From an uncultured Alphaproteobacteria bacterium (GTDB lineage: Bacteria; Pseudomonadota; Alphaproteobacteria; HIMB59; GCA-002718135): 64,000 bases of DNA. Below the pieces are notes generated by a model. It ran no database searches. It was not told where the DNA came from and saw only the letters and a program-made list of their open reading frames with translations. A program made the translations under genes and the position numbers. Below, in pieces: positions 18,085 through 30,790 of the stretch. Each line of letters begins with the position of its first letter. Positions within the stretch are counted from its first letter, which is position 1. Location: the NCBI GenBank assembly GCA_902572735.1, contig CACGGX010000004.1, positions 7,743-71,742 on the forward strand, read 5' to 3'.

Positions 18085-19326
18085 CTACATTAGATCTAAA
18101 AATGACTCAACTGGTATACTCCAATTTTGAGGTGAGTTTAGATTACAATATGGTTGACAATATTCAGATCCATCATCAAGTATATGACATTCTTCTGGTC
18201 CACCTAATATTTTACAACTTGAAGTAATGCCAATTAATTCTCCAGTCTTGGTATATAATCCTCCGCCTGAATTACCTTTATCAATTGGCGCATCAGTTTC
18301 TATATATTTCAAACCACTTTCTCTTAACCAAGGAGCACTTTCAACCATTCTAGGAGGAGGGTAATTATATTTCATTGTAATTTTACCTTCAGTAGGTTTT
18401 CCTACATATCCTCTAGGATTACCAACTGCATATACAGTATCATTAATATTAATATTATCGTAATAACCTAAATTTGGAAAAGAAATGTTGTTATCACTTC
18501 CAATATCTAAGATACATCTATCTGTTAATATATCTTCTTTTATTATTGGAACATTTCGCAACCATTGACTATTATTAGGGTCACCTGCATTTTCATTAAC
18601 TGGAATTAAATTAATAGATAAATCATCTTCATATCCATGCATTTCATAACATTGTTCTATATTTTCAAAACCAAATGCTGTTGACACTTCTTTTTCTGAA
18701 TAACCTTGATCAATAAAGTGCTCAATGTATTTACATTGATAATTAGTTACAACATGACAGTTTGTGAAAACAATACCATCGCCAATATGAACAGCTGAAC
18801 CACTACCTAATTGAAAATTATCTGATATTGTTGAAAGTTGTACATAAAATGTAGATGATTGTACCTCATCTAACAAATCTCTTACTAAATCTTTTGGCAT
18901 TTTTACTTCTATCGGAGGTGCATCCTCATCTTCATCTTTTCCTGTATCTTCTTGATTTTTTCTTAATACAGGAGGTTCAATAGTCTCAATCTCAATACCT
19001 AGTATTTTATTTACAGCTTTATAAATACATTCATTGTATTTTAGAGCTCCTAACTTTATTTCAAAAACACAAATATCTTCAATGTATTCCTGGTCTTCTT
19101 TATTTGATACTTGCTGCACACTCACAATACCTTGAGCTTCAAGAGCGCTTTTAATTGATTTTACACATTCATTTTTAGTTGAGTATTTCTTTTCTTTGAC
19201 TGATTTTTTACACTCAATATTTATAGCTTCTTTTAAATCAGCTGAATAATAAGCTGCTTCTATCTTCTCTGGTAAGAAAATTGAAGCAAATGATACTAGT
19301 ATAAGAATAGATATAAATTTACTCAT
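18085..19326 (-). CDS. Secreted trypsin-like (S1/PA clan) serine protease with a Cys-rich N-terminal domain
   Basis: 413 aa with a signal peptide (ILILVSFASIFL). The catalytic His context is GSAVHIGDGIVFTNCHVV and the catalytic Ser context is DKGNSGGGLYTKTGELIGITS. Transcribed divergently from the 19432 operon. Confidence 0.75.
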   Translation of the reverse strand: MSKFISILILVSFASIFLPEKIEAAYYSADLKEAINIECKKSVKEKKYSTKNECVKSIKSALEAQGIVSVQQVSNKEDQEYIEDICVFEIKLGALKYNECIYKAVNKILGIEIETIEPPVLRKNQEDTGKDEDEDAPPIEVKMPKDLVRDLLDEVQSSTFYVQLSTISDNFQLGSGSAVHIGDGIVFTNCHVVTNYQCKYIEHFIDQGYSEKEVSTAFGFENIEQCYEMHGYEDDLSINLIPVNENAGDPNNSQWLRNVPIIKEDILTDRCILDIGSDNNISFPNLGYYDNININDTVYAVGNPRGYVGKPTEGKITMKYNYPPPRMVESAPWLRESGLKYIETDAPIDKGNSGGGLYTKTGELIGITSSCKILGGPEECHILDDGSEYCQPYCNLNSPQNWSIPVESFLDLM

Positions 19327-19431
19327 TAATTAAAGATATTTTAACCACAATTTAAAGCTAATTAAAATAGAAATAATGGGCGAAATAATTTGTTCTTTTG
19401 ATTGTTTTAAGTTAGATTTTAATTTTGATTT

Positions 19432-20799
19432 ATGAGAATTTTCTTACTTTTATCTATGGTTTTTCTCTCTTTTTCACTTAAGGCTAATGAGTCTTGTGTT
19501 AAAGAAATTTTAGAAGAAAATAATTCCATTAATCTAGCTAAGAATGAGACATCAAGCTCTGAAAAAATTGGGGTAGCTAATTTATTTTATGATCATTCTC
19601 TAAACATGAAAGGTTTTATTAAGCCATCTAATTCACTATTTAAAAATTTCATTACTACCTTAAACTCAAAGATAGCTTTAGTAAGCAACGATCAAAAATT
19701 TTATAAATATACTTACGGTATTAAACCGTTAAATAATTCTGATGTAGGAAAAATTACATCATCAGAATCTTTTTACAAATGTCCTTTAGCAGCTGATCAA
19801 TGTCCTAAGCGAAGAGCTAAATTATCAAAAATATTAAAAGTGGTTGAGAAACAAGAAGACTCTCTAATAATTATTGTAACAGATTTATTTATTGGGATGG
19901 ATGAATTAATAGGCGATGGAATTAATGCAATTCGTAATCCTATAGCTGCTGCATTAGCAAGAGGAGACTCAATTGGCGTTTATGGAATAAAGAGTCAATA
20001 CGAAGGAACAATTACAGGAATATGTTCTGGCAATAATTATAATCTAGCAACTTCTAGACCATTTTATGTATTTACTATCGGTCCAAAAGAAAACGTACTC
20101 GCATTAAAAGAAATAATGGACAAAGATGTTATCTCAAAATTTGGAGAAGAAAATTTTAAATTTAATATTTATACAAATGATATTATTAAAACTCCTTTCA
20201 TTGAAAATTCTTGGCCGTCAAATACATTTGAAATTGGCGGTGGTATATCAACAGTTAATGTATTTGGAGAAGATTTAAAATTATATCAATTTAGTGTTGA
20301 TAAAAAAAGTGATCCTTTAAAAATTAAATTTGATCTTAATAATATTCAAACCCCGTACACTCTACCAGTTAAAGATTTATATGCTGAAGTTGATGTATAC
20401 GTTCAACGTAAAGACTCAGGCACTTGTTCTAATGATTGGCGATCATATGATCCTAATAAACAAAATGTAGTTTATTTTTCAGAACAAAATGGAACAAATG
20501 TATCATTTAATTTATTTGATAAATCTAAAAATGATCGAATAAGCCTTAAAAGAGATAAAAATTATATCTTTAATATTAAATATAGAGCGAAAGGTGTAGG
20601 TGTTACATCAAATGATTATTGGATGAATGAATGGAGTTTTGTTTGTGATGATATTGGAAAATATATTGAAAGTGGAACAACTTTCTTTCCAACATTAAAT
20701 TTAGCCGCTCTTGGATCAAACATGGAAGATGTGCAATCAGAAAACTTTGAGGATCAAGTTATTTCTCAAATGAACTTAGGATTTTATTTAGAGAGATAA
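19432..20799 (+). CDS. Operon gene 1: secreted protein with a degenerate vWA-like core (hypothetical)
   Basis: 455 aa with a signal peptide (MRIFLLLSMVFLSFSLKA). VANLFYDHSLNMKGF resembles a beta-strand plus a degraded MIDAS (DxSxS becomes DHSLN). SLIIIVTDLFIG resembles the vWA hhhhhTDG strand. Assignment is by eye only. Confidence 0.6.
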   Translation: MRIFLLLSMVFLSFSLKANESCVKEILEENNSINLAKNETSSSEKIGVANLFYDHSLNMKGFIKPSNSLFKNFITTLNSKIALVSNDQKFYKYTYGIKPLNNSDVGKITSSESFYKCPLAADQCPKRRAKLSKILKVVEKQEDSLIIIVTDLFIGMDELIGDGINAIRNPIAAALARGDSIGVYGIKSQYEGTITGICSGNNYNLATSRPFYVFTIGPKENVLALKEIMDKDVISKFGEENFKFNIYTNDIIKTPFIENSWPSNTFEIGGGISTVNVFGEDLKLYQFSVDKKSDPLKIKFDLNNIQTPYTLPVKDLYAEVDVYVQRKDSGTCSNDWRSYDPNKQNVVYFSEQNGTNVSFNLFDKSKNDRISLKRDKNYIFNIKYRAKGVGVTSNDYWMNEWSFVCDDIGKYIESGTTFFPTLNLAALGSNMEDVQSENFEDQVISQMNLGFYLER

Positions 20800-20800
20800 T

Positions 20801-21352
20801 ATGCGTCATATATTTTCATTAATTGTAATATCTATTTTCGTAGGACTAATAATTGTACCTGCTTATCTAGTTTCTTTTTTTGATATTGGATTTATTGGTC
20901 GTGGTGATGCAATACAAAATATTATTTTCTACATACTTGACCAAGATCCTAATATGCCAGGTGAAGAACGTGTCTGGAATGCAGAAGACTTACAATTATT
21001 AGGCATTCAACCTTTACTTATTTATTTAACAGCTTTCTGGTTTATTTTATTTATCGTGTGGATAATAATTACTGAATTTTTAAGAATTGATAGGCCTAAT
21101 AAAGCTTTTAAATTTATGTGGATTTGGTTTTTATTTTTAGCCGTTATGTTAGCTTTATCAGGATATATGACTTATTACTTTTTATATAGTCAAAAAGAAG
21201 TTTATCAATATGTAGGGGGACCACAAATAACTTCAATAATATTCTTAACAACAATTTTATCTTTAATTTTATTTTATTTGACAACATTGTTTATTACATC
21301 GAGAGTTAATAGACCAACCGTACCACTTGCTACAATTTTGATGAGGACATAA
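20801..21352 (+). CDS. Operon gene 2: 4-TM integral membrane protein (hypothetical)
   Basis: 183 aa with four hydrophobic helices (about aa 5-25, 70-92, 103-125, 142-165). Starts 1 nt after the gene 1 stop. Its stop overlaps the gene 3 start (TAATG). Confidence 0.65.
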   Translation: MRHIFSLIVISIFVGLIIVPAYLVSFFDIGFIGRGDAIQNIIFYILDQDPNMPGEERVWNAEDLQLLGIQPLLIYLTAFWFILFIVWIIITEFLRIDRPNKAFKFMWIWFLFLAVMLALSGYMTYYFLYSQKEVYQYVGGPQITSIIFLTTILSLILFYLTTLFITSRVNRPTVPLATILMRT

Positions 21353-22857
21353 TGGCTGATTGTTATTTTATAGGTATAGGTGGAACAGGAAGTAAATGTG
21401 TAAATAATTATGTTTATTCATCTGCTGCTGGTCTTGGTCCTGATCGGTTATGGATTGGAATGGTTGATCAAGATGATGCTAATGGTAATGTTGCTGAGTC
21501 CAGATCAAATATAGAAAATTATCAACGTGTAAGACGTATCCTTAGAACACCAGGACTTAGTGATATTAATGATAAAACAGATTTATTTAAAACGAATATT
21601 ACGACTCAAGTAGGTCAAACGTCTTGGTGTCCACTTCCAGGAACAGCACCAACGCTTAAAGATGTCTTCTCTTATGATTTACTTAATAAAGATTTACAAG
21701 ATACCATAGATTGTTTGTATCACCCTCAAGAAGAATTAAATTTAGAACTAGATGAAGGTTTCCGAGCAAGACCAAGTATAGGCGCTGCTGCAATTTTATC
21801 TCGTGTTCAAGAAAATGATCCTTTCTGGGTAAATATATTTAATGCCATTGACTCGGCTAAAGCTGGAACAGAAGTTCGTATCTTCCTTGTTAGTTCTATT
21901 TTTGGAGGAACTGGTGCATCTGGTTTTCCATCAATTGCTAGATTAATTCGATCTGAAATGGATAAAAGAGGTATCAGAGACGGTGTCCATTTGGGTGGCG
22001 CTCTCATGCTTCCTTATTTTAAATTTCCAAAACCAGGTGAAGATGAAATTAAAGAAGTGGCATATGCTGAAAGTTTCTTAGAGCAATCAAGAGGTGCTTT
22101 AGATTATTATCACCGCTTATTTGAAAAAGAACAACGTAAAACTTTTGATCAATTGTATTTAGTTGGTTGGGATCCATTAATTGAATTACCAGTTTTTGAG
22201 AAAGGTGGAAATCTACAACGTAATCCTGCTTTACTTCCAGAATTATTTACTTCTCTTGCGGCTTCACGTTTCTTTATGTCGAATTCAGTAGATAATGGCA
22301 TTTTCCATATAGCTAGAAACGATGCGAATGCCTTTTCATGGGATGATTTTCCTGAAATTAATGATCAACAAAAAATTGTAAAAGATAATTTATCACAAAT
22401 GACAAGAACTGCTCTTGCTTATAGAGAAATTTATTATCCTTACTTGGTAGATCAATGGCGAAAAGTAAAAAATGAAAGTTGGTTTCGAAATACATTATTA
22501 AAGCAAGGTGTAGATTTTAATAATGATGAAACATCATTAAATTTTAATAATCTTTTAGCATACTTTGAAAATTATTTAGACTGGCTTGCTAATATGATTC
22601 ACTTTAGTCAAAATGCTACAGTTCAAGGTATTGATCTTGTGGATGTAAACATGTTTTCACAATATGAAAATAGCCAAGTAACTATAAGTGATAAAGTTAG
22701 AGATCATCAACTAAAGCAATTCAATTCATTAATTAGTGGCGTTAATAGTAGCAGTCTTGCAAAAGTATTCTTAAAAATGAATTATTCTCGTGTTCCAAAA
22801 AATAGAACTGGTATTGGTGCCTTTGTCGGAGCTTTATATGAAAGTTGTAAGAGTTAG
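21352..22857 (+). CDS. Operon gene 3: tubulin/FtsZ-superfamily-like GTPase (divergent, Tubulin_2-like)
   Basis: 501 aa with no TM or signal peptide. The T1-loop-like motif is CYFIGIGGTGSKCV (nt 21373-21396). The T3-like motif is GFRARPSIGAAA, compared with FtsZ GAGANPEVGRKAA. The T4 signature is SSIFGGTGASGFPSIA (nt 21901-21924), compared with tubulin/FtsZ GGGTG[ST]G. A GAGGA Shine-Dalgarno sequence lies 5 nt upstream. Confidence 0.7.
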   Translation: MADCYFIGIGGTGSKCVNNYVYSSAAGLGPDRLWIGMVDQDDANGNVAESRSNIENYQRVRRILRTPGLSDINDKTDLFKTNITTQVGQTSWCPLPGTAPTLKDVFSYDLLNKDLQDTIDCLYHPQEELNLELDEGFRARPSIGAAAILSRVQENDPFWVNIFNAIDSAKAGTEVRIFLVSSIFGGTGASGFPSIARLIRSEMDKRGIRDGVHLGGALMLPYFKFPKPGEDEIKEVAYAESFLEQSRGALDYYHRLFEKEQRKTFDQLYLVGWDPLIELPVFEKGGNLQRNPALLPELFTSLAASRFFMSNSVDNGIFHIARNDANAFSWDDFPEINDQQKIVKDNLSQMTRTALAYREIYYPYLVDQWRKVKNESWFRNTLLKQGVDFNNDETSLNFNNLLAYFENYLDWLANMIHFSQNATVQGIDLVDVNMFSQYENSQVTISDKVRDHQLKQFNSLISGVNSSSLAKVFLKMNYSRVPKNRTGIGAFVGALYESCKS

Positions 22858-22859
22858 AT

Positions 22860-25800
22860 ATGGTTAAAAGTCTTCTCCCACCACTCAATGATGATCATGC
22901 AGTAGCTATCCCAAGTACGCATGGTAAATGGACGGTTGATGAAAATTCTATTCTCGGACGTATCGCTAATGGCTTAAAAGATATTACAATTGAACAAGAA
23001 GTAGAAGATCTTATTTCTATACCTGATGTTTGGGCAAGAGTTGCCGTAGTTAAAAATGCTCTCTTTGATGATAAACATCCATTAAATTATACTGTTAGAG
23101 GCGAGTGGAGAGGTTTACTGGCTCTTTTTGCTTTAATGCCGTATCACGGAAAAAATTTAGAAACAATTCCAGTAAACATTCAATCCTTAAAAAATAATCC
23201 CTATCAAGTTCCGCCAAACGAAGAGGGCGTACTTGGTAATTTTGCTGAAGTGTTAGCAACGATCACACCAGGGACTACTATTGCACAAGGTCAAAATTGG
23301 TCGGAGATTGGAATAATCAAACTTGGTGGTAAGCCAGTAGGTCTTTTAACGCCAAATACTATTGTTTCTCCTGCAAGATATTATTCAGAATCTATTCCAG
23401 GCGGCATTGATTGGTTTCAAACTGGTAAATTTATTGATCCATGTGAAGCAGCGAATATTCAACAGGAACAATTTTTAGTTCTTATACGTTTCCTTGATGA
23501 AATGATTACAGGACTTCAGCAAACAGCTATGGCTGATAAAATAAATTTTGATGGTATTTTAGGTGAACTTACAAGCTTTAAAGAAGATTGTCAAAAACGA
23601 ATTAGTTCTAGTCAATCTAGTGCGGTTGATATTTTAAACTATAAAAAATTTAATGTTGTTCTTCGTGTACCACAACAACCAATTTATACTTTATTACAAA
23701 ATATTTATGAAATAGATACCGGTGGTGTCGCTGCATTTGATACCTTAATTAAAGTTAGACCTGAACTTAATTCAGTTACCAATGGCATTATTTTAATTGA
23801 TGATGAAATACCAAGTGGTATCGGTAAAGCAGCATCAGATGTAAGATTATGGAATACTATTACAGTTGAAACATTAATTGGAGATAAACAAGCAAAAAAA
23901 CGTATCCAAAAAGAAGTATCAGATGCTGGTTATCTTTTCTTACATCCAGAAGAATTATTTACAGAAAAATTATGTTTACCTGCGAGCTCTGAAAAGATTA
24001 TGAATCATAATGATCTTTTAGCTAAACCGTATTTGTTACCTTTTAATCCAATTGTTTTATCTTTTATGACGGCATCGCAGTTAAGAAATAATTTTGATAT
24101 CAAAGATAATGGCACAAGTATTAATGTATCTCTTCGTTTAGAACTTCAAAATCATATGGGTCAAAAAACTGAATACGTAATTCGAAAAGAATATTTACAA
24201 GCAAATATAGAAAATAGACTTGAATTACCATTATCAGCTCATATTTGGCCTAACTTTGTGCATCCAGCATGGAATCAATATTTTATGATGTATGCATGTA
24301 ACTTGCAGGCATCAATTGCTCTTCGATCAGTATTTTCCATTCAAGGACTCTCAAAAGAATTGGATAATTTTGAAAGTTCGGATCAAAAAATTAAAGCTCT
24401 CAATCAATTAAAAGATTTTACTGTAAAAATGTCTAATAGGTTACCTTTACAAGAAACTACTAACGTTGTTGAATTACATTTGACTGAACATCCTCCAGAG
24501 GCGCTAGTTTGTGATGCAAGTATGATTATGGACCTGCATGAATTCATACCAAGTAATGAACGTTCTGCGATGGGAATTATTCTAGCTGGAAAACCAGAAG
24601 AGGTAATGGTTAACAATGATGCATTAAGTTTTGGAATAGATTTTGGTACAACAAATACCTGTGCTTATATGCGTGTTAATGAAGAAATTCCAAAAGAAAT
24701 AAATTTTGAGAATAGATTATATTCACCATTTTCACCAAGTGATGACAAAGAATATTTAAATTACCAATTACGAGAATTTGTTCCTGAAAGAAATGTAGTA
24801 TTACCTTTCCAAACAATTTCAAGAGATAGAAATCTAGGAAAGAAACAAGGAGATATTTCATTTCCTTTACCTTTATGGAGTGCCTTTATATATTACGTTG
24901 GTGACATGAGGGATGGTTTAGATGATATTTTAAACCCAGTTCAAAGACCGCTTCATTTCAATCTTAAATGGTCTAAAGCAGAAGCAGATAGAGAGCGAAT
25001 AGAAATTTATCTAGCTCAAGTTGCTCTACAATGTATCGCGGAGGGATTGGCTAGAGGAGCAGATTTAGATAAAATAAATTGGAGTTTTTCTTATCCTGAA
25101 GCTTTTACGCCAACTCAATTGCAAAATTTTAGACGTCTATTTAATAGTGGATTACGAAAAGCTTTACAGCCATTTAATAGCAATGGTAATTTAATTCAAA
25201 CAGAGCAAAAAAGTGAAAGTTTATCAAGTGCACTTTATTTTTCATCTTTTAAAAACGCTCCATTCACCGAAAGTGTTGTAACTATTGATATTGGCGGTGG
25301 AACTTCTGATATTTCTATTTGGCAAAATCTCAATTTATTATGGAGAAGTTCAGTAACAATAGCCGGTCAACATATTCTTATAAATTATTTAAATAAAAAT
25401 CCTAATTTAATAGAGTCTCTTTCATCAAATGATAGAGTAATGCAAGAAGCGTACGAACAGTTAACAAATATTAAATCTAAAGGAGACCCGACTGCCCTGA
25501 GGAATGCTATTGAAGTCATAGTAAATTCAAAAAATTTTGCTGAAGCAATTAATTCACGTTTCCATATTGTAGATGGTCAAGATAATGGAAGAAATTTAAG
25601 ACTTATAGCTGAATTAGCGCTAGCAGGGATTCTTTTTTATGCCGGTCAAATGGTTAATCATTTAACAAATCAAGGTTTATACGACCCAAGTAAAACAAAA
25701 CAATTTAGTATTTGTCTCGGTGGACGAGCAAGTCTTTTATATAAAGTATTATTTAGTGACTCAGAAGATCGAAATGGCTTATGTCGTTTATTTGCAGCAG

Positions 25801-26315
25801 CATCAAATAATACTGTTGATATTGATAAAGTTAACTTTGTATTCACTGATAAACCAAAACATGAAGTTGCTCATGGCTTGTTGGTAGATCAAAGAGGAAT
25901 AGCTAATTTAGATACTTCTAAGCGTTGTTATGATGTTTTATTAGGTGAAGATATTGATGTAGGTGGCGAAGTAACAAAATATAACCAATCAGCAAGTGAT
26001 TTAGATCTAGATAAGGAATGGCGCGCAATAAGCTTAACAAATATGAAGCAATTTGCAGAAATGTTGAACGCAAATACAGGAATAGTTTTTGAAGTATCAA
26101 GACAAGTTGAGAATATGATTGTATCTAAAATAAATACTAACCTTGTGACAGCTCAAGAAGAGTTACAAGATGCTAAAAAAGATGGTCTTGATTATTTATC
26201 AGATGATATGAAGGGAGAGACATCAATTATAGAACCTCCATTCATTGTAGCAATAAAAGAAATACTGGAAAGAGTTTCGAAAAAAGAAATCAATCTTCTA
26301 TCGAAAAAAATTTAA
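22860..26315 (+). CDS. Operon gene 4: 1151-aa protein with an unknown ~580-aa N-terminal region fused to an Hsp70/actin-fold (ASKHA) ATPase domain
   Basis: Ordered ASKHA motifs are present. Phosphate-1 is FGIDFGTTNTCAY (aa 591-603, nt 24630-24668), compared with DnaK GIDLGTTNS. Connect-1 is SESLSSALYF (aa 785-794), compared with NEPTAAALAY. Phosphate-2 is VVTIDIGGGTSDISIW (aa 806-821; DIGGGTSD core at nt 25287-25310), compared with DLGGGTFDVS. The adenosine motif is FSICLGGRASLL (aa 949-960), compared with LVGGSTRIP. Confidence 0.7.
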   Translation: MVKSLLPPLNDDHAVAIPSTHGKWTVDENSILGRIANGLKDITIEQEVEDLISIPDVWARVAVVKNALFDDKHPLNYTVRGEWRGLLALFALMPYHGKNLETIPVNIQSLKNNPYQVPPNEEGVLGNFAEVLATITPGTTIAQGQNWSEIGIIKLGGKPVGLLTPNTIVSPARYYSESIPGGIDWFQTGKFIDPCEAANIQQEQFLVLIRFLDEMITGLQQTAMADKINFDGILGELTSFKEDCQKRISSSQSSAVDILNYKKFNVVLRVPQQPIYTLLQNIYEIDTGGVAAFDTLIKVRPELNSVTNGIILIDDEIPSGIGKAASDVRLWNTITVETLIGDKQAKKRIQKEVSDAGYLFLHPEELFTEKLCLPASSEKIMNHNDLLAKPYLLPFNPIVLSFMTASQLRNNFDIKDNGTSINVSLRLELQNHMGQKTEYVIRKEYLQANIENRLELPLSAHIWPNFVHPAWNQYFMMYACNLQASIALRSVFSIQGLSKELDNFESSDQKIKALNQLKDFTVKMSNRLPLQETTNVVELHLTEHPPEALVCDASMIMDLHEFIPSNERSAMGIILAGKPEEVMVNNDALSFGIDFGTTNTCAYMRVNEEIPKEINFENRLYSPFSPSDDKEYLNYQLREFVPERNVVLPFQTISRDRNLGKKQGDISFPLPLWSAFIYYVGDMRDGLDDILNPVQRPLHFNLKWSKAEADRERIEIYLAQVALQCIAEGLARGADLDKINWSFSYPEAFTPTQLQNFRRLFNSGLRKALQPFNSNGNLIQTEQKSESLSSALYFSSFKNAPFTESVVTIDIGGGTSDISIWQNLNLLWRSSVTIAGQHILINYLNKNPNLIESLSSNDRVMQEAYEQLTNIKSKGDPTALRNAIEVIVNSKNFAEAINSRFHIVDGQDNGRNLRLIAELALAGILFYAGQMVNHLTNQGLYDPSKTKQFSICLGGRASLLYKVLFSDSEDRNGLCRLFAAASNNTVDIDKVNFVFTDKPKHEVAHGLLVDQRGIANLDTSKRCYDVLLGEDIDVGGEVTKYNQSASDLDLDKEWRAISLTNMKQFAEMLNANTGIVFEVSRQVENMIVSKINTNLVTAQEELQDAKKDGLDYLSDDMKGETSIIEPPFIVAIKEILERVSKKEINLLSKKI

Positions 26316-28610
26316 GTGATTAAAAAAATTATCTTTTTTTTAATATTAATAGTCTTTTCAAATAATTTATTTGCATCAGAACAGAAGAGTATACGTATAG
26401 ATGTACAAAAATTTAAATGCGATTATAGAGGAGAAATTCCTCCAGAAGAAATATTTCAAAGATTTAATATTATTACTGAAGCAGAAAAAGAGGCTAATAA
26501 AAACTATATTATTGCTGAATTAAAAAAAAATAATTCAGCTCATGAATTATTTTGTAATAATCAACCTATAGCAATAGAATTTAATTATTCAATATTAGAA
26601 AATCTTCCCGTACCTATCAAAAAAGATCTTCCTGTGCCAAAAAATGAAGAAAGTGAAAATAAACAACAGTCATTAATAATAAATAATGATGATCAAACAA
26701 ATGAAGATGATTTAGAAGAAAAGCCGTTAACTGAAGGAGAAAAGAAAAGGCAAGAAAAACAAAAACAGAAAGAAAAACAAATAAAAGATGAAGAGGAAAA
26801 ACTAGATAAAGGTAAAGTTGTTAAATCTTTTATTGAAAATCAAAAAGATAAAGATGAGAACAAAATATTATTTTCAACTTCTATTGAAGAACTATCTAAA
26901 AAATTTGCTCAATATAAAGAAAATTATGAGGAGAGTGACAACTTTAACAGAACTCAATTAGAAGCATTAAAGACTGATTTTCAATCTATTAAAAATATTA
27001 TTGCAAATAATTATATGGGTTTAATAAATACCTATGATCAAATTAAATTATTTTGTAATGAATTAGATGACTTCAAATTTAAAGAAAATAAATCTGGTGG
27101 AAAAGAATTAAAAAATAATTGTAAAACTATAACAGAAGATTGGACTTCGCTTAATTGGATTAAAGTTGGTAAGCAAAATTTTATTGATTATTTTAATTTA
27201 GAAATCTATCAAATTGATTCTGAAATTAAAATTTATATAGAAAATATAGTTAGCAAAATTGAGAATATTAAAAAAGCTGAAGAAAAAAGAAAAGAAGATG
27301 AAAGAAAAGCTGATGAAAAAAGAAAAGAAGATGAAAGAAAAGCTGAAGAAAAAAGGAAAGAAGAAGAAAGACAAAAAAAATTAAAAGAAGCTGAAGAAAA
27401 AAAGAAAAAAGAAGAAGCTGAAAAGAAAAAAGAAGCTGAACGTCAAAAGAAATTAGAACAAAAAAAGAAAGAAGAAGAAGAAAAGAAAAAAGAAGCTGAA
27501 CGTCAAAAGGAATTAAAACAAATAGAAAAAGATAAAAAAGATGAATATGAAAATATTATAGTATCAATTGAAAAAATTGAAATTCAAGAATTAAACGAAA
27601 ATTTTGAAAAATTAGCCGAAAGTTATGAAGAATTATCTAATAGAGATTCATTAAGTGTAAATATTGATAAAGATTTAGATAATCTTAATGAACAAAGAGC
27701 TGAATTAGTTAGCGATGGTATTTTTGAAACAATTAAAGAAGTTAAAGATAATATAAGTATAAATGAATTACTTGATGAAGATAAAAAAGAAGATCTTTTA
27801 GAAAATCTTAAAAATAATGTTGAAAGTAAAATAGAAAAAAGAAAAAAGGAAATTGATAATTATATTAAGATTATTGAAGGTAAAATTAATTCTCAAGATC
27901 AAGCATTTAGATCTAAAATTGATGAATTAGAAAATCGAAATACTCTTTATTTATTCATTATTATTGGAACTATAGTAATATTAGGTGGTGCTATAATTTA
28001 TTTAATTCTTCGAAGATCAAAAGATGATGTACCATCTCAAACATCATCCATACGTAATACGAGTATACTTCAGCAAGAAATTGATGAATTAAAACAAATT
28101 ATACGTAACAGTCAACAACAATCAAATGTTCAACAAACACCTAATGTTACACAACAACAACCTCAAGAAGAGGTAAGACAACCAACGGAACAAGAATTAT
28201 TTGCACAAAAATTAAATGATTTAGGGCATGATTATTTAGATGCAATTACAGATCCAAATAAAATAGAAGGATTTAAAGAAAAATGGCAAGCGATTGGACT
28301 AGATAGAGAAAGCCGAGTAGGGGCATCAACAGTTACTACTCTTAAAAAAGATAATAGACCGTTTGAGAGATGTAATTTCTGGGCTGTGCCAATTAGAAAT
28401 AACTATAGAATATTTGGTGGAAGAATATTAAGAACGAATTCTGTTGCTTTAACTGCAGATGATGGCCGTATGGCAAGAGATCTCTTAACGGGCATATTTG
28501 ATATTGAATACGGAACAAGCTTTCAAATACGACAGCAAGGTGTAGCTGTAATGAAAAATCAAATATTTGAGATTACTACTAAAGGTAAAATTACTATTCC
28601 GAAAACCTAA
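26316..28610 (+). CDS. Operon gene 5: bitopic envelope protein (signal peptide, extracytoplasmic domain, E/K/R-rich helical rod, TM, cytoplasmic C-terminal domain)
   Basis: 764 aa. The GTG start directly abuts the gene 4 stop and yields a proper signal peptide (MIKKIIFFLILIVFSNNLFA|SEQ). The ER/K block runs AEEKRKEDERKADEKRKEDERKAEEKRKEEERQKKLKEAEEKKKKEEAEKKKEAERQKKLEQKKKEEEEKKKEAERQKELKQ. The TM is LYLFIIIGTIVILGGAIIYLIL followed by RRSK (about nt 27945-28010). A Q-rich linker precedes a ~140-aa C-terminal domain homologous to that of gene 6. Confidence 0.7.
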   Translation: MIKKIIFFLILIVFSNNLFASEQKSIRIDVQKFKCDYRGEIPPEEIFQRFNIITEAEKEANKNYIIAELKKNNSAHELFCNNQPIAIEFNYSILENLPVPIKKDLPVPKNEESENKQQSLIINNDDQTNEDDLEEKPLTEGEKKRQEKQKQKEKQIKDEEEKLDKGKVVKSFIENQKDKDENKILFSTSIEELSKKFAQYKENYEESDNFNRTQLEALKTDFQSIKNIIANNYMGLINTYDQIKLFCNELDDFKFKENKSGGKELKNNCKTITEDWTSLNWIKVGKQNFIDYFNLEIYQIDSEIKIYIENIVSKIENIKKAEEKRKEDERKADEKRKEDERKAEEKRKEEERQKKLKEAEEKKKKEEAEKKKEAERQKKLEQKKKEEEEKKKEAERQKELKQIEKDKKDEYENIIVSIEKIEIQELNENFEKLAESYEELSNRDSLSVNIDKDLDNLNEQRAELVSDGIFETIKEVKDNISINELLDEDKKEDLLENLKNNVESKIEKRKKEIDNYIKIIEGKINSQDQAFRSKIDELENRNTLYLFIIIGTIVILGGAIIYLILRRSKDDVPSQTSSIRNTSILQQEIDELKQIIRNSQQQSNVQQTPNVTQQQPQEEVRQPTEQELFAQKLNDLGHDYLDAITDPNKIEGFKEKWQAIGLDRESRVGASTVTTLKKDNRPFERCNFWAVPIRNNYRIFGGRILRTNSVALTADDGRMARDLLTGIFDIEYGTSFQIRQQGVAVMKNQIFEITTKGKITIPKT
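27276..27374 (+). repeat. In-frame 33-nt tandem repeat x3 inside gene 5
   Basis: The units are 27276-27308, 27309-27341 and 27342-27374. Each follows gctgaagaaaaaagaaaagaagatgaaagaaaa with a few substitutions. They encode AEEKRKEDERK / ADEKRKEDERK / AEEKRKEEERQ. Confidence 0.85.
27421..27509 (+). repeat. Direct repeat: two identical 29-nt copies spaced 60 nt apart, inside gene 5
   Basis: aaaagaaaaaagaagctgaacgtcaaaag occurs at 27421-27449 and again at 27481-27509, encoding KKKEAERQK both times. Confidence 0.85.
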
Positions 28611-30790
28611 TGTTAAAAAAAAATATTTATTTTATTTTAATAGTTATTTTTTTAATTAGTAAAAATTTATTTGCCTATAACATTCCAAATAAAAAAAACT
28701 CTTCTATTATTGATCGATTTTTTAAAGATGGTGAATATGTCCTTATAGAAGATGAAAAATTTATTCCTTTCTTAGATTTACTTAATACTAAGAATCTAAA
28801 ATTATTAGAATCATTTCCATATAAAATTTATATAAAACTAGAAGAAGAAAGATATGATTATAAAGTTGCTTATTTTTTTAATAACTATGATGACTTATCA
28901 CTTAATTATATAAGAGTTCATTGGGCGCCAACTATTGGAAATAATAAATATAACTATTCTTTTGATTGTATCAAACCAAATAAAAATGATGTTTGTAATG
29001 GTTTTAATAATCCAATTAAAGGTGAGCAAGATTTAAAAATTCTTGATAAAGTATTTTTTAAAGGTAATTATTATTCTATACCATATAAAGATATAGAAGA
29101 TAATAAATACTGTCTTTTTTCAAGAAAATATAAGCTTACAGCAAATAATGAGAAGGTTAATTACACTATTGATTATTGGACATGTTCTAATAACATAAAT
29201 TCTAAAAATATATCTAATGCAGTTCATTTTGAGCTACTTAATTCAATTAAAATTGACAACAACATAACAATTAAACAAATTAATGAACTTGTTCCATATG
29301 TTATTGATAATGTAAAAAAAGGAATAAATAATAAAAATAAAGCTGAAGAGAAAAAAAAGAAAGAGGAAGAAGCTAAAAAGAAAGCTGAAGAGAGAAAAAA
29401 GAAAGAGGAAGAAGCTAAAAAGTTAGCTGAAGAGGAAAAAAAGGAAGCTGAACGTCAAAAAAAATTAGAAGAAAAAAAGAAAGAACTTGAAAAGAAAAGA
29501 AAAGAAGAGGAAGAAAAAAGAAGAATTGAAGAAGAATTAAAAAGACAAGCAGAAGAAAAGAAAAGAAAACAGGAAGAAGAAAGAAAAAAAAGAGAAGCTG
29601 AAGAAAAAAGAAAAAAAGAATTACAAAAAAATATTCAAGATTCTAAATCAGCATTATCAGCTTCTAAAGCTAATCAAAATAAATTAATTACAGAAACAAA
29701 AAATTTAGAATTACAATTAAGAGAAATCAAATCAGCAAATACAATAAATAAGATTAATATAGTTAAACAAAAAACTGATAATATATATGATAATATACAA
29801 TCTAACCTAAAATCATTTAATACGAAGTATAAAAAAGTAGAAAAACTATTCAAAAATAATCCTGAAACAGAATTAAATTTAATCTTTAATGAATTTAAAT
29901 TATTAAATACACAGTTTAAAAATCAAAGAAAAGTAATAGAAGAATTATACTCTGATATTGAAAACAATTATTTATCTAAAAAATCTAAATTTGAAAAAGA
30001 ATTAAGAGATAAAGAATTAACTGATGCCTTTATGCGTTCAGATCAAGCTTATATATATACCTATGTGCCAATCGGAGTAGCCATTGTACTATTATTAATA
30101 CTTATCTGGAGATGGAACTCATCAGGAAGACAAATTGCTTATTTGAATAATAAAATAAGAGATCTAGAAAAAAATAACGAGAAATCAAGTTCACCAACAA
30201 CTCAGGTATCGAAGTCTTTTGATAAAATTGAGAAACAAGAGGAAACTATCACTACATCTATAAAAACTCCTGAAAAAAGTAATATTAATGAAGAAGAAGA
30301 AGAAGAAGAAGAAGTAGAAAATAAAAATATAGAAGAGCCGATAAGCAATGAAATCAAAAAATTGAATAACTTGATTGATGATAAAACGTTTATGGATAAA
30401 TATCAAAATGCTGTTAGTGATTTAAATAGCTTAAGATCTTTTACGGACGAATTTAAAGTTAAAGGTTTAGAAAGGTTTTCATCACAAAGAGTAGAAGAGG
30501 GCGTTGAATTAGAAATCAGTCAGCGTATTGTTGATAAAGCGATGTTCTGGTTAATTGAACACCCGCAAACATTTGAATTACTAATATTACCTGGAAGAGA
30601 TTTATGGTCCCGATCTCGCTTATTATTACAAGATACAAGTCGCTTTGGTTATTTAAACTTTAATGGTATTTTTGATTTATCAGAAGGTGAAGAATTTAAA
30701 TTAACAAATTTTGCTATCGTATCAGTGACAGATAAGAAAAAATATAAAATTGAACAAAAAGGAGAATTAATACTTCCTAAATCTAATTAG
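28610..30790 (+). CDS. Operon gene 6: paralog of gene 5 (signal peptide, extracytoplasmic domain, E/K/R helical rod, TM, poly-Glu linker, shared cytoplasmic C-terminal domain)
   Basis: 726 aa. The ATG overlaps the gene 5 stop (TAATG). The signal peptide is MLKKNIYFILIVIFLISKNLFA|YN. The ER/K block runs KAEEKKKKEEEAKKKAEERKKKEEEAKKLAEEEKKEAERQKKLEEKKKELEKKRKEEEEKRRIEEELKRQAEEKKRKQEEERKKREAEEKRKKELQ. The TM is YVPIGVAIVLLLILIW followed by RW (about nt 30044-30109). The C-terminal domain aligns with gene 5: FW......GR.L...S..L..D..R.....GIFD...G..F......KG...PK. Confidence 0.7.
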   Translation: MLKKNIYFILIVIFLISKNLFAYNIPNKKNSSIIDRFFKDGEYVLIEDEKFIPFLDLLNTKNLKLLESFPYKIYIKLEEERYDYKVAYFFNNYDDLSLNYIRVHWAPTIGNNKYNYSFDCIKPNKNDVCNGFNNPIKGEQDLKILDKVFFKGNYYSIPYKDIEDNKYCLFSRKYKLTANNEKVNYTIDYWTCSNNINSKNISNAVHFELLNSIKIDNNITIKQINELVPYVIDNVKKGINNKNKAEEKKKKEEEAKKKAEERKKKEEEAKKLAEEEKKEAERQKKLEEKKKELEKKRKEEEEKRRIEEELKRQAEEKKRKQEEERKKREAEEKRKKELQKNIQDSKSALSASKANQNKLITETKNLELQLREIKSANTINKINIVKQKTDNIYDNIQSNLKSFNTKYKKVEKLFKNNPETELNLIFNEFKLLNTQFKNQRKVIEELYSDIENNYLSKKSKFEKELRDKELTDAFMRSDQAYIYTYVPIGVAIVLLLILIWRWNSSGRQIAYLNNKIRDLEKNNEKSSSPTTQVSKSFDKIEKQEETITTSIKTPEKSNINEEEEEEEEVENKNIEEPISNEIKKLNNLIDDKTFMDKYQNAVSDLNSLRSFTDEFKVKGLERFSSQRVEEGVELEISQRIVDKAMFWLIEHPQTFELLILPGRDLWSRSRLLLQDTSRFGYLNFNGIFDLSEGEEFKLTNFAIVSVTDKKKYKIEQKGELILPKSN
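29342..29425 (+). repeat. In-frame 42-nt tandem repeat x2 (plus a diverged third start) inside gene 6
   Basis: Unit 29342-29383 is gctgaagagaaaaaaaagaaagaggaagaagctaaaaagaaa. Unit 29384-29425 is gctgaagagagaaaaaagaaagaggaagaagctaaaaagtta. They differ at only 3 positions and encode AEEKKKKEEEAKKK / AEERKKKEEEAKKL. Confidence 0.85.
30290..30313 (+). repeat. (GAA)8 trinucleotide microsatellite inside gene 6 (poly-Glu linker)
   Basis: Eight consecutive gaa codons encode EEEEEEEE, between the TM segment and the C-terminal domain. Confidence 0.9.

What the first reader, a model, noticed from the sequence alone, without database searches (positions are those of the whole stretch)
21352..22857. Divergent tubulin/FtsZ-superfamily protein with widely spaced T1 and T4 loops and no FtsZ-like C-terminal tail
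The protein carries three loops that resemble the FtsZ nucleotide-binding loops:
- FIGIGGTGSKCV (aa 6-17) resembles FtsZ IGVGGGGSNAV.
- GFRARPSIGAAA (aa 136-147) resembles GAGANPEVGRKAA.
- FGGTGASGFPSIA (aa 184-196) resembles the tubulin signature GGGTG[ST]G followed by a helix.

The loop order matches tubulin/FtsZ. The T1-T4 spacing is about 175 aa, against about 85-100 aa in FtsZ, which implies large insertions.

The remaining ~300 aa have no obvious FtsZ C-terminal (T7/synergy) domain that I can recognise. There is also no conserved C-terminal membrane-tether peptide.

If it polymerises, membrane attachment would have to come from the operon partners.
Basis: partly seen in the sequence, partly recalled or inferred. 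Interest (0 to 1): 0.75.

Follow-up and report, generated by a model that had tools for sequence, protein, structure and literature searches.

The report
Short tubulin-like GTPase in envelope operon
The gene encodes a real but very divergent tubulin/FtsZ-type protein of an already catalogued, never-tested family (Pfam Tubulin_2); it sits in a widely conserved operon next to an actin/Hsp70-type ATPase and membrane proteins, and what that operon does is unknown.

Summary

- The protein passes Pfam's threshold for Tubulin_2 (PF13809).
- A confident AlphaFold model matches only FtsZ, CetZ, tubulin, TubZ, BtubA and PhuZ structures.
- The T1-T5 loops are nearly invariant in 149 distant relatives.
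- There is no FtsZ-type C-terminal domain and no disordered tail.

It is not a new superfamily member. The family was described in 2010 as FtsZ-like 1, and RefSeq already names a relative "tubulin-like".

What I did not find described is this short (~500 aa) subfamily and its operon, conserved across at least eight bacterial lineages. The operon encodes:
- an exported protein with a vWA-like motif;
- a 4-TM protein;
- the tubulin-like protein;
- a ~1100-aa actin/Hsp70-fold ATPase, naturally fused to the tubulin-like protein in one lineage;
- single-pass coiled-coil membrane proteins.

Some lineages add ZorAB-like stator genes. The window looks like a SAR11 (Pelagibacterales) genome.

The most likely role is as the GTP-binding cytoplasmic subunit of an envelope-spanning complex, held at the membrane by its partners. 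Physiological function, polymerisation and the catalytic T7 residue remain unresolved.

The parts
21352..22857 (+). Tubulin/FtsZ-superfamily protein, 501 aa; short form of Pfam Tubulin_2 (FtsZ-like 1)
   Evidence: ORF. PF13809 35.8 bits, above the gathering score of 27. AF2 pLDDT 86.8. Foldseek hits only FtsZ/CetZ/tubulin/TubZ.
21373..21396 (+). T1 loop, GIGGTGSK (aa 8-15)
   Evidence: G8/G10/G11/G13 are 89-99% conserved in 149 representatives. The loop follows strand 1 and opens helix 1 in the model.
21466..21489 (+). T2-like loop, DQDDANGN (aa 39-46)
   Evidence: D39 93%, D41 100%, N44 and G45 98% conserved. It follows strand 2. The position corresponds to FtsZ N-T-D (inference).
21544..21747 (+). 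Family-specific insert between helix 2 and T3 (aa 65-132); it explains the wide T1-T4 spacing
   Evidence: Secondary structure of the model. W92, P94, L122 and E128 are conserved. Inserts between T1 and T4 are described for FtsZl1 in PMC2875224.
21757..21783 (+). T3 loop, GFRARPSIG (aa 136-144); counterpart of FtsZ GAGANPEVG
   Evidence: G136 and G144 100%, P141 91% conserved.
21901..21924 (+). T4 signature loop, FGGTGASG (aa 184-191)
   Evidence: G185/G186/G188 100%, T187 96%, A189 99% conserved. hhalign pairs it with the E. coli FtsZ GGGTGTG region. HMM alignment pairs it with CetZ 3zid.
22009..22020 (+). T5-like loop, LPYF (aa 220-223)
   Evidence: P221 and Y222 100%, F223 99% conserved. 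It follows strand 5. The resemblance to FtsZ PFxFEG is an inference.
22237..22854 (+). C-terminal half (aa 296-501), mostly helical and ordered to the last residues; not an FtsZ_C or Tubulin_C domain. Holds the candidate T7-type acidic residues E297, D332 and D367/E375.
   Evidence: DSSP and pLDDT of the model. No FtsZ_C or Tubulin_C hit in Pfam. E297 99%, W330 100%, D332 91%, P334 96% conserved.
20801..21352 (+). 4-TM inner-membrane protein, 183 aa; its stop codon overlaps the tubulin-like start. It carries a conserved cytoplasmic C-terminal tail (RPTVPLA, aa 170-176). Candidate membrane anchor.
   Evidence: Four hydrophobic segments. TAATG overlap. Directly upstream of the tubulin-like gene in 70 of 82 loci. 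Conserved tail motif.
19432..20799 (+). Exported 455-aa protein with a vWA/MIDAS-like motif (DxSxSMxG[FY] and VTDL in the family; DHSLN in the window) and an invariant Cys after the signal peptide
   Evidence: Alignment A2. Found within 2.5 kb upstream in 55 of 74 loci. No HMM or hhalign support for vWA.
22860..26315 (+). 1151-aa protein: N-terminal ~590 aa of unknown fold, then an actin/Hsp70-superfamily ATPase domain
   Evidence: Weak MreB/EutA/FtsA HMM hits. AF2 pLDDT 86. Foldseek: Hsp70 nucleotide-binding domains and MreB/Mbl, E about 1e-8. Directly downstream in 61 of 68 loci. Fused to the tubulin-like protein in P0192.
24627..25889 (+). Approximate extent of the actin/Hsp70-fold ATPase domain (aa ~590-1010, my estimate), with phosphate-1 GIDFGTTNT (aa 592-600) and phosphate-2 DIGGGTSD (aa 810-817)
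   Evidence: Sequence. Invariant G592, D594, F595, G596, D810, G812, D817 and G955 in 30 homologues. Foldseek.
26316..28610 (+). Single-pass membrane protein, 764 aa: signal peptide, K/E-rich coiled-coil ectodomain, TM at aa 546-564, cytoplasmic ~135-aa C-terminal domain (aa ~631-764)
   Evidence: Hydropathy and K/E runs. C-terminal domain shared with the next gene and with the gene after the ATPase gene in 25 loci.
28610..30790 (+). Paralogue of the previous gene, 726 aa: signal peptide, coiled coil, TM at aa 482-500, same C-terminal domain (aa ~583-725)
   Evidence: BLASTP of the two C-terminal domains: 28% identity, E 2e-14. Hydropathy. Sub-threshold TolA-like match to the K/E-rich region.
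18085..19326 (-). Divergently transcribed secreted trypsin-like peptidase; a neighbour conserved in the SAR11-type loci only
   Evidence: PF13365 58.9 bits. N-terminal hydrophobic segment. Same position in the 7 closest loci, L001-L007.
30783..31970 (-). Convergent exported coiled-coil protein with a weak (sub-threshold) SH3_3 match; a possible accessory neighbour
   Evidence: Sub-threshold SH3_3 match, 22.9 bits against a cutoff of 27. An SH3_3 gene occupies the same position in L001. My iterative search found no homologue in the other loci.

Best explanation
**What it is.** The 501-aa protein is a cytoplasmic nucleotide-binding protein with the tubulin/FtsZ GTPase fold. It is a short-form member of the Pfam Tubulin_2 / 'FtsZ-like 1' family. 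It is not a cell-division FtsZ.

**The complex it belongs to.** It is one subunit of a conserved multi-protein system that spans the inner membrane:
- an exported protein with a vWA-like motif on the outside;
- a 4-TM protein, translationally coupled to the tubulin-like gene;
- the tubulin-like protein;
- a large actin/Hsp70-fold ATPase that works in direct contact with it, since the two are one polypeptide in some bacteria;
- one or two single-pass membrane proteins, each with a long periplasmic coiled coil and a small conserved cytoplasmic domain.

**Proposed mechanism (inferred, not shown).**
1. The tubulin-like protein binds GTP through its intact T1-T5 loops.
2. It is held at the inner face of the membrane by the conserved C-terminal tail of the 4-TM protein and/or the cytoplasmic domains of the single-pass proteins.
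3. It undergoes nucleotide-dependent self-association or switching together with the ATPase.
4. This couples events in the periplasm, such as ligand binding by the vWA-like protein or mechanical input through the coiled coils (or through ZorAB-like stators in other phyla), to an assembly in the cytoplasm.

**What stays open.** The physiological output could be envelope maintenance or remodelling, or response to an invader. Neither is established.
For: **Shown for the protein**
- Fold and family.
- Strong purifying selection on the nucleotide-binding loops.
- No transmembrane segment and no disordered tail.

**Shown for the operon in the window**
- Tight packing from 19432 to 30790, with gene junctions of -1 to +2 nt.

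**Shown for conservation elsewhere**
- Synteny holds across Alphaproteobacteria, Acidobacteria, Poribacteria, Cyanobacteria, Negativicutes, Bacteroidota, Ignavibacteria and Chlorobi.
- The 4-TM gene is directly upstream in 70 of 82 loci.
- The ATPase gene is directly downstream in 61 of 68 loci.
- The vWA-like gene is nearby in 55 of 74 loci.
- The natural 1683-aa fusion of tubulin-like and ATPase proteins lies on 3 contigs; the two places shown come from 2 samples.

**Shown for the partners**
- Actin/Hsp70 fold of the partner, with invariant phosphate-binding motifs.
- Conserved cytoplasmic tail on the 4-TM protein.
- Conserved C-terminal domain of the single-pass proteins in 25 loci.
- ZorA-like and ZorB-like genes complete the operon in L024 and L051, and the same two gene families follow the cassette in 10-12 loci.

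**Literature**
- The FtsZl1 family is linked to vWA, OmpA/MotA-type and membrane proteins (PMC2875224).
- Tubulin, HSP70 and extracellular vWA components occur in predicted conflict systems (PMC7159879).
Against: - No biochemical data exist for any Tubulin_2 protein that I could find.
- No recognisable FtsZ/tubulin C-terminal domain or T7 loop could be mapped, so polymerisation-activated GTP hydrolysis is unproven.
- By sequence alone the link to FtsZ is confined to the T4 region: hhalign probability 4.8% and PDB profile E 0.3 or worse.
- Foldseek TM-scores are low (0.2-0.38) because of the inserts and the different C-terminal half.
- The vWA assignment rests on motifs only. The window copy has DHSLN rather than DxSxS.
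- All contacts between the proteins are inferred from gene order and one fusion.
- Selenomonadales loci keep the tubulin-like and 4-TM genes but lack the ATPase.
Confidence: 0.6

Rival explanations
1. The protein forms true cytomotive filaments. It polymerises head-to-tail with GTP, as FtsZ, TubZ and PhuZ do, on the inner membrane. The filaments deform or organise the membrane, which is the 'membrane remodelling / vesicle biogenesis' role proposed for FtsZ-like 1 in 2010.
For: - Tubulin/FtsZ fold with conserved T1-T5 loops.
- Conserved acidic residues in loops of the C-terminal half could act as a T7 equivalent: E297, D332, D367/E375.
- Many membrane and envelope partners.
- The proposal in PMC2875224.
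Against: - No C-terminal domain of FtsZ/tubulin type, which normally contributes the lower longitudinal interface.
- No polymer data exist.
- The partner is an Hsp70/actin-fold ATPase, which fits a chaperone or switch logic as well as it fits a second filament.
Confidence: 0.3
2. The operon is an anti-phage or other conflict system. Like Zorya, or the vWA/tubulin/HSP70 systems predicted by Kaur et al. (2020), it senses an attack at the envelope. It then triggers an NTP-dependent cytoplasmic assembly of the tubulin-like protein and the ATPase, which blocks the invader or kills the cell.
For: - ZorA-like (MotA plus long tail) and ZorB-like genes follow the cassette in Acidobacteria, Poribacteria, Bacteroidaceae and Negativicutes loci. 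ZorB1 models score up to 69 bits.
- The cassette lies on a mobilizable Gloeothece plasmid and on Picosynechococcus plasmids.
- The fusion locus L087 sits beside MNT/HEPN, a DNA methylase and an integrase.
- The distribution across phyla is patchy.
- There is a thematic match to PMC7159879.
Against: - None of the six window operon proteins hits PADLOC.
- No P-loop DO-GTPase or GAP1 partner is present: there is no Walker A motif in any operon protein.
- No nuclease or other obvious effector is present.
- The 142 flanking genes from other loci are heterogeneous, with only scattered defence hits.
- In SAR11-type genomes the flanks include housekeeping genes.
- GC content is uniform with the rest of the window.
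- The window itself has no ZorAB.
Confidence: 0.25
3. The protein keeps the tubulin fold but is a nucleotide-binding scaffold or regulator that neither hydrolyses GTP nor polymerises. An example would be a GTP-sensing adaptor or co-factor for the Hsp70-like ATPase.
For: - The canonical activating domain and T7 are absent.
- The obligate pairing and the fusion with an ATPase could supply the energy.
Against: Near-invariance of T3 and T4, the loops that contact the gamma-phosphate in FtsZ and tubulin, is more than binding alone would be expected to require.
Confidence: 0.15
4. The glycine-rich loops belong to a different Rossmann-type fold, such as a FAD/NAD-binding or another NTPase fold. On this reading the tubulin resemblance is superficial.
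For: Sequence similarity to solved FtsZ or tubulin chains is insignificant by HMM search.
Against: - Pfam Tubulin_2 scores above its curated threshold.
- All 50 listed PDB fold matches, and the top viral matches, are tubulin/FtsZ-family proteins at probability about 1.0.
- Dehydrogenase-type folds appear only at E above 0.01 and probability below 0.3.
Confidence: 0.02

Closest known systems
FtsZ-like 1 (FtsZl1) family of Makarova and Koonin 2010 = Pfam Tubulin_2 (PF13809)
   Same: - Passes the Pfam threshold.
- Has inserts between T1 and T4.
- Has no recognisable T6-H7 or FtsZ/tubulin C-terminal domain, but a helical C-terminal region instead.
- Is linked to a vWA-type gene and membrane proteins. 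In relatives it is also linked to MotA/OmpA-type genes.
- No experimental function is known.
   Different: [quoted passage not shown] This protein is 501 aa with no coiled coil.
- The Pfam match covers only aa 140-272.
- The operon partners differ: a 4-TM protein upstream and a ~1100-aa actin/Hsp70-fold ATPase downstream. Neither is among the families listed there (A1-A2, B1-B9, GTPase, kinase).
- The vWA-like protein is too divergent to hit any vWA model.
FtsZ (bacterial cell-division protein)
   Same: - GTPase-domain fold.
- T1 (GGxG), T3 (GxxxxPxxG) and T4 (GGTG) loops in the same order.
- Best Foldseek match is M. tuberculosis FtsZ.
   Different: - T1-T4 spacing is about 175 aa, against about 85.
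- No FtsZ_C domain, no disordered linker and no C-terminal tether peptide.
- Not in a division and cell-wall gene cluster.
- T7 could not be identified.
TubZ / PhuZ (plasmid and phage tubulins)
   Same: - Divergent prokaryotic tubulin-fold proteins that appear among the fold matches.
- Some relatives of the window gene are plasmid-borne.
   Different: - No TubR-like DNA-binding partner or centromere.
- The partners are membrane and periplasmic proteins.
- tblastn found no phage homologue.
DO-GTPase / GAP1-N2 conflict systems with tubulin or HSP70 components (Kaur, Burroughs, Iyer, Aravind 2020)
   Same: Combines a tubulin-family protein, an Hsp70-family ATPase fold, an extracellular vWA-type protein and membrane components.
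   Different: - No TRAFAC DO-GTPase, GAP1 or FNIII component.
[quoted passage not shown]
- Here both occur in one operon, and in other phyla.
Zorya (ZorAB-based anti-phage defence)
   Same: In several phyla the same cassette ends with a MotA-like protein carrying a long tail and a MotB/OmpA-like protein. Both hit ZorA and ZorB models.
   Different: - The window has no ZorAB. Two single-pass coiled-coil proteins occupy that place.
- No ZorC, ZorD or ZorE-type effector is present.
- The similarity may reflect a shared stator module only.

Membership tests
Tubulin/FtsZ superfamily | Rossmann-like GTPase-domain fold with tubulin/FtsZ topology | tested here: met
   AF2 model pLDDT 86.8, pTM 0.89. 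The Foldseek PDB top 50 are all FtsZ/CetZ/tubulin/TubZ/BtubA, best E 2e-5. The top viral matches are phage FtsZ/tubulin/PhuZ. This is a predicted structure, not an experimental one.
Tubulin/FtsZ superfamily | T1 glycine loop and T4 signature GGGTG[ST]G in the right order | tested here: met
   GIGGTGSK (aa 8-15) and FGGTGASG (aa 184-191). The glycines are 86-100% conserved. The signature is a variant, [F]GGTGA[SA]G. PF00091 matches only this region and scores below threshold, 17.6 bits against 33.
Tubulin/FtsZ superfamily | T7 'synergy' loop with a catalytic acidic residue that activates GTP hydrolysis in the neighbouring subunit | tested here: inconclusive
   The conserved acidic candidates are E297 (99%) and D332 (91%, in WxDxP), plus D367/E375, which are less conserved. 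I could not superpose model coordinates, and hhalign aligned only T4.
Tubulin/FtsZ superfamily | C-terminal (FtsZ_C / Tubulin_C) domain | tested here: not met
   No Pfam hit. Residues 296-501 are predicted mostly helical with only short strands.
Tubulin/FtsZ superfamily | GTP binding and hydrolysis, and nucleotide-dependent polymerisation | not testable with these tools
   This needs biochemistry and electron microscopy.
Pfam Tubulin_2 (PF13809) / FtsZ-like 1 | Score above the curated gathering threshold | tested here: met
   35.8 bits against 27, E 7.4e-9, covering aa 140-272 and profile positions 120-268 of 356. Nearly all homologues carry a precomputed PF13809 hit.
Pfam Tubulin_2 (PF13809) / FtsZ-like 1 | Usual architecture: N-terminal FtsZ-like domain, extended coiled coil, then a helical C-terminal domain (about 760-1200 aa) | tested here: not met
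   The protein is 501 aa with no coiled coil. The FtsZl1 proteins in the part of the 2010 table I read are 763-1208 aa. Nearly all of the top 150 representatives of this subfamily are about 480-565 aa.
Pfam Tubulin_2 (PF13809) / FtsZ-like 1 | Operon with a vWA-domain protein | tested here: inconclusive
   The upstream exported protein family has DxSxSMxG[FY] and VTDL motifs and a lipobox Cys. No vWA HMM, PDB-profile or hhalign support was found.
FtsZ proper | FtsZ_C domain, disordered linker and conserved C-terminal peptide; division and cell-wall gene-cluster context | tested here: not met
   The neighbours are a peptidase, membrane proteins and an ATPase.
DO-GTPase/GAP1 conflict systems (Kaur et al. 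2020) | One or two TRAFAC-clade DO-GTPases plus GAP1 | tested here: not met
   None of the ten proteins from 17230 to 33499 has a Walker A motif. No relevant Pfam, NCBIfam or PADLOC hits. GAP1 has no model in the libraries at hand, so its absence is inferred from the lack of a GTPase partner.
Zorya | ZorA/ZorB stator pair in the operon | tested here: not met
   There are no PADLOC hits for the six window operon proteins. ZorA-like and ZorB-like genes are present in the related loci L024 and L051.

The most novel reading that the evidence does not exclude
The window carries one example of an undescribed, widely distributed five-component envelope-spanning machine. Its core is an obligate pair of a tubulin-superfamily GTPase and an actin/Hsp70-superfamily ATPase, which are fused in some bacteria. 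The pair is tethered to the membrane by a dedicated 4-TM protein and wired to a periplasmic vWA-like sensor, and to coiled-coil proteins or ZorAB-like stators. If so, it would be a new kind of bacterial system, for envelope sensing and defence or for membrane remodelling. It is present even in the streamlined genomes of SAR11, among the most abundant marine bacteria.
Probability: 0.35. Interest if true: 0.8.

Novelty: new variant of a known kind. Interest (0 to 1): 0.55.

Why it matters
**The family is untested.** I found no experimental work on any Tubulin_2 / FtsZ-like 1 protein, 16 years after the family was predicted. One recent phylogenetic study excluded these sequences from its FtsZ/tubulin analyses as too divergent.

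**This subfamily looks tractable.**
- The protein is short, compact and confidently modelled.
- The subfamily is large: 1283 clusters at 50% identity score E 1e-30 or better.
- It has a fixed set of partners.
- It occurs in cultured bacteria, including Picosynechococcus, Gloeothece, Arthrospira, Azospirillum oleiclasticum and Candidatus Pelagibacter sp. FZCC0015.

**A tubulin-fold GTPase tied to an actin/Hsp70-fold ATPase is unusual.** Working out how they act together would bear on three questions:
- how a tubulin fold works without its activating domain;
- how cytoplasmic NTPases are coupled to the periplasm;
- why SAR11, with about 1.3 Mb genomes, keeps an ~11-kb operon of unknown function.

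Tried and rejected
- **Sequence searches against solved structures.** A search with the single protein and one with a 47-sequence profile gave only insignificant hits. The best relevant one was CetZ at E 0.3, in the T4 region.
- **hhalign against E. coli FtsZ.** The family profile aligned only the T4 region, at probability 4.8%. T6, H7 and T7 could therefore not be mapped by sequence.
- **Testing the vWA idea for the 455-aa protein.** All of these gave nothing, so the vWA call stays at motif level:
  - Pfam on 28 family members at E 0.01 and at E 10;
  - a profile search against PDB;
  - hhalign against E. coli YfbK;
  - a profile search of the large protein database, which returned only 5 hits with no annotation.
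- **PADLOC and NCBIfam on the six operon proteins.** There were no meaningful hits.
- **Promoter and terminator scans.** Counts equalled the shuffled expectation in this AT-rich DNA.
- **Defence-island test.** Pfam and PADLOC on 142 genes flanking the cassette in other loci showed heterogeneous neighbours and only scattered defence genes. There was no clear enrichment, and I had no formal background model.
- **Signs of a foreign island in the window.** GC content is uniform and there is no tRNA, although an integrase-family gene lies about 5 kb downstream.
- **Literature searches.** I looked for a description of this cassette using combinations of tubulin-like/Tubulin_2, Hsp70, vWA, ZorA, SAR11 and anti-phage, and found none.
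- **A first iterative search script** timed out and was rerun with faster alignment settings.


Full report
**1. The observation**

The ORF at 21352-22857 (+) exists, starts with ATG and encodes 501 aa.
- FIGIGGTGSKCV, aa 6-17
- GFRARPSIGAAA, aa 136-147
- FGGTGASGFPSIA, aa 184-196

T1 and T4 are about 175 aa apart. In E. coli FtsZ the T4 motif lies around residue 105-110. T1 lies near residue 20 (from my own knowledge), which gives a spacing of about 85 aa.

In the predicted structure, most of the extra length is one insert (aa 65-132) between helix 2 and the T3 loop.

The motifs are under selection. I aligned 149 representatives that share only 27-64% identity with the window protein. The glycines and neighbouring residues of T1, a DQD..NG loop after strand 2, T3, T4 and an LPYF loop after strand 5 are 86-100% conserved.

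**2. What the protein is**

- Pfam Tubulin_2 (PF13809) matches above its curated threshold, at 35.8 bits against 27. The classical Tubulin/FtsZ model PF00091 touches only the T4 region, below threshold.
- NCBIfam and PADLOC have nothing for it.
- Sequence searches against solved structures are insignificant. hhalign against E. coli FtsZ pairs only the T4 loop.
- The fold evidence is clear. An AlphaFold2 model built on 47 homologues has mean pLDDT 86.8 and pTM 0.89.
- All 50 listed Foldseek matches in the PDB are FtsZ, CetZ, alpha/beta/gamma-tubulin, TubZ or BtubA. The best is M. tuberculosis FtsZ, E 2e-5, probability 1.0.
- The best matches among predicted viral structures are phage FtsZ, tubulin and PhuZ.
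- TM-scores are low (0.2-0.38). That fits a conserved core with large inserts and a different C-terminal half.

Residues 296-501 are predicted as mostly long helices with a few short strands. They are ordered up to the last helix. There is no FtsZ_C or Tubulin_C domain, no disordered linker and no tail peptide.

I could not identify a T7 loop. Conserved acidic candidates are E297 (99%), D332 (91%, within an invariant-W WxDxP motif) and the less conserved D367/E375. Deciding among them needs the model coordinates, which I could not inspect.

**3. Relation to the literature**

Tubulin_2 corresponds to the 'FtsZ-like 1' family that Makarova and Koonin defined in 2010. That family has:
- an FtsZ-like N-terminal domain with family-specific inserts between T1 and T4;
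- no alignable T6-H7;
- no FtsZ/tubulin C-terminal domain;
- operons with vWA proteins, divergent GTPases, kinases and OmpA/MotA-type proteins.

The authors proposed a role in membrane remodelling (PMC2875224).

A 2023 phylogenetic study excluded Tubulin_2 sequences from its FtsZ/tubulin analyses as too divergent and used them only to root a schematic overview tree (PMC9871819).

Kaur et al. (2020) placed tubulin-domain proteins, HSP70 proteins and extracellular vWA proteins in predicted 'DO-GTPase/GAP1-N2' conflict systems. [quoted passage not shown]

RefSeq already labels a cyanobacterial plasmid homologue 'tubulin-like doman-containing protein' and its neighbours 'hypothetical protein'.

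**4. What differs from the described family**

The FtsZl1 proteins in the part of the 2010 neighbourhood table that I read are 763-1208 aa, and the text describes most members as carrying an extended coiled coil. The window protein is 501 aa with no coiled coil.

An exhaustive HMMER search of 1.84 billion representative proteins found:
- 2287 clusters at E 1e-3 or better;
- 1283 clusters at E 1e-30 or better;
- a top 150 that are nearly all about 480-565 aa.

This is therefore a large, distinct short-form subfamily. None of the homologues I looked up has a functional name; those with a name are 'hypothetical protein'.

**5. The operon in the window**

Six genes are packed from 19432 to 30790 on the + strand, with junctions of -1 to +2 nt.

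| Coordinates | Product | Evidence |
|---|---|---|
| 19432-20799 | 455-aa exported protein. Its family has an invariant Cys after the signal peptide (a lipobox in most phyla), a DxSxSMxG[FY] motif and a VTDL motif, i.e. vWA/MIDAS-like. The window copy reads DHSLN. |; no profile method confirmed vWA |
| 20801-21352 | 183-aa protein with four hydrophobic segments. Its stop codon overlaps the tubulin-like start (TAATG). | |
| 21352-22857 | The tubulin-like protein. | see sections 1-2 |
| 22860-26315 | 1151-aa protein. Its C-terminal half has the actin/Hsp70 ATPase fold. Its first ~590 aa match nothing. | see below |
| 26316-28610 | 764-aa single-pass membrane protein: signal peptide, long K/E-rich coiled coil, one TM, then a ~135-aa C-terminal domain. 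| |
| 28610-30790 | 726-aa paralogue with the same layout. | |

Evidence for the ATPase fold of the 1151-aa protein:
- invariant GIDFGTTNT and DIGGGTSD motifs;
- weak MreB, EutA and FtsA HMM hits;
- an AF2 model with pLDDT 86;
- 573 Foldseek matches at E 1e-3 or better, led by Hsp70 nucleotide-binding domains and MreB/Mbl, with TM-score about 0.5 relative to the target.

The C-terminal domains of the two single-pass proteins are predicted to be cytoplasmic by the positive-inside rule (inference).

No operon protein has a Walker A motif, so there is no DO-GTPase.

A secreted trypsin-like peptidase is transcribed divergently upstream. An exported coiled-coil protein with a sub-threshold SH3_3 match lies convergently downstream.

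**6. Conservation of the cassette**

The window has 28.5% GC. The closest genomic relatives are Pelagibacteraceae single-cell genomes. The ATPase has a homologue in Candidatus Pelagibacter sp. FZCC0015. The window most likely comes from a SAR11-type genome.

A scan of one genome per species found at least 583 stretches that encode a relative. The best 80 come from Alphaproteobacteria, Acidobacteria, Poribacteria, many Cyanobacteria, Negativicutes, Bacteroidota, Ignavibacteria and Chlorobi.

In 83 non-duplicate loci:
- the 4-TM gene is directly upstream of the tubulin-like gene in 70 of 82 loci with enough flanking DNA;
- the ATPase gene is directly downstream in 61 of 68;
- the vWA-like gene is within 2.5 kb upstream in 55 of 74, and divergently oriented in 17 of those, mostly cyanobacterial.

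In 10-12 loci, mainly from Acidobacteria and Poribacteria, with one Bacteroidaceae and one Negativicutes locus, the cassette continues with two further conserved gene families. I scanned these in L024 and L051. One is a MotA/ExbB-type protein with a long tail and the other a MotB/OmpA-type protein. They hit ZorA and ZorB models, with ZorB1 up to 69 bits. The 2010 paper already noted MotA/OmpA genes next to long FtsZl1 genes.

One representative, P0192 (1683 aa), is a full-length natural fusion of the tubulin-like protein (aa 2-513) and the ATPase (aa 530-1683). It lies on 3 contigs; the two places shown, from two samples, have the same gene context. This is the strongest sign that the two NTPases act in direct contact.

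Selenomonadales keep only the tubulin-like and 4-TM genes. That makes this pair the tightest unit.

The 4-TM family ends in a conserved short tail after TM4:
- K[FY]xP[PL]G[AS] in most phyla;
- RP[AST]VPLA in Alphaproteobacteria;
- RPTVPLA in the window.

I propose this tail as the tether for the tubulin-like protein. It would be the reverse of FtsZ, where the tail peptide is on the tubulin homologue itself. This is inference only.

**7. Function**

The cassette is not on phages. It is on a mobilizable Gloeothece plasmid and on Picosynechococcus plasmids.

The 142 genes flanking it in other loci are heterogeneous. They include a few envelope-related neighbours (trypsin-like peptidases, SH3_3, LytR_cpsA_psr) and a few defence genes (PbeC/DndD, Shedu-like). 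There is no evident enrichment, although I had no formal background model.

The fusion locus lies beside MNT/HEPN, a methylase and an integrase. The SAR11-type loci lie among housekeeping genes. The window region has uniform GC.

The evidence therefore supports a membrane-anchored, envelope-spanning NTPase complex. It does not decide between an envelope or membrane-remodelling role and a Zorya-like conflict role.

My best-supported mechanism is as follows.
1. The tubulin-like protein binds GTP through intact T1-T5 loops.
2. Its partners hold it at the inner membrane.
3. It undergoes nucleotide-dependent self-association or switching together with the actin/Hsp70-fold ATPase.
4. This links periplasmic input (the vWA-like protein, coiled coils or stators) to a cytoplasmic assembly.

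The shown steps are the fold, the motif conservation, the gene linkage, the fusion and the partner folds. The inferred steps are GTP binding, polymerisation, the tether, the topology and the direction of signalling.

**8. Verdict**

The protein is a new variant (short form, new partner set) of a known but experimentally untouched family, not a new kind of tubulin relative.

Interest is moderate. A specialist would not be surprised that Tubulin_2 proteins exist. The conserved and occasionally fused tubulin-fold/actin-fold pair, its spread across phyla and its retention in SAR11 are worth experimental follow-up.

Noticed in passing
window 35039-35773 (-) and 35924-36982 (+): A 244-aa SIR2-family gene lies next to a phage-integrase-family gene, about 4-5 kb downstream of the operon. 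ARAGORN finds no tRNA gene anywhere in the window, and there is no GC shift. This could be an ordinary CobB-type deacetylase plus a lone recombinase, or the edge of an island.
   Followed up: partly
window 26316-30790: The two paralogous coiled-coil membrane genes have the lowest GC of the window (24-25%) and a strong AT skew (+0.26 to +0.29). This comes from long K/E-rich runs, at aa 340-402 of the first protein and aa 244-340 of the second. They give sub-threshold TolA-like hits.
   Followed up: partly
window 20801-21352, aa 165-183 of the 4-TM protein; loci L001-L084: The 4-TM protein family ends in a conserved short tail after TM4. It reads K[FY]xP[PL]G[AS] in most phyla and RP[AST]VPLA in Alphaproteobacteria. 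It is a candidate docking peptide for the tubulin-like protein.
   Followed up: partly
L087 and L088 6001-11052 (protein P0192): Natural fusion of the tubulin-like protein and the actin/Hsp70-fold ATPase, 1683 aa. Upstream lie SrfB- and SrfC-like genes (PF07520 and a faint PF10139 hit). Downstream lie MNT/HEPN, a DNA methylase and an integrase fragment.
   Followed up: partly
L024 16013-18627; L051 15819-18251; similar genes in L021-L031, L060, L068: ZorA-like genes (MotA_ExbB domain plus a long tail) and ZorB-like genes (OmpA/MotB) directly follow the cassette in Acidobacteria, Poribacteria, Bacteroidaceae and Negativicutes. They are absent from the window.
   Followed up: yes
L034, L043-L047, L064, L069, L072, L078 (Selenomonadales): A reduced variant. 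The tubulin-like gene (~461 aa) and the 4-TM gene are present without the ATPase or the vWA-like gene. Instead they sit next to LytR_cpsA_psr and YrbL-PhoP_reg family genes.
   Followed up: partly
window 8234-9442 (+) and 14629-15630 (-): Two paralogous PF14099 polysaccharide-lyase genes flank a HlyD/MacB-type efflux gene pair at 9547-13019.
   Followed up: no
window 19432-20799, aa 54-58: The window copy of the vWA-like protein has DHSLN where the family consensus is DxSxS. The other SAR11-type copies read DHTLS, DTSQN and DQSLS. The putative metal site may therefore be eroding in this lineage.
   Followed up: partly
L040 17403-19595, L052 18314-20512, L058 16919-19903 (cyanobacteria): A second, shorter (730-994 aa) paralogue of the actin/Hsp70-fold ATPase lies about 2-3.5 kb downstream of the first in three filamentous cyanobacteria. 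It has no Pfam or PADLOC hit.
   Followed up: partly
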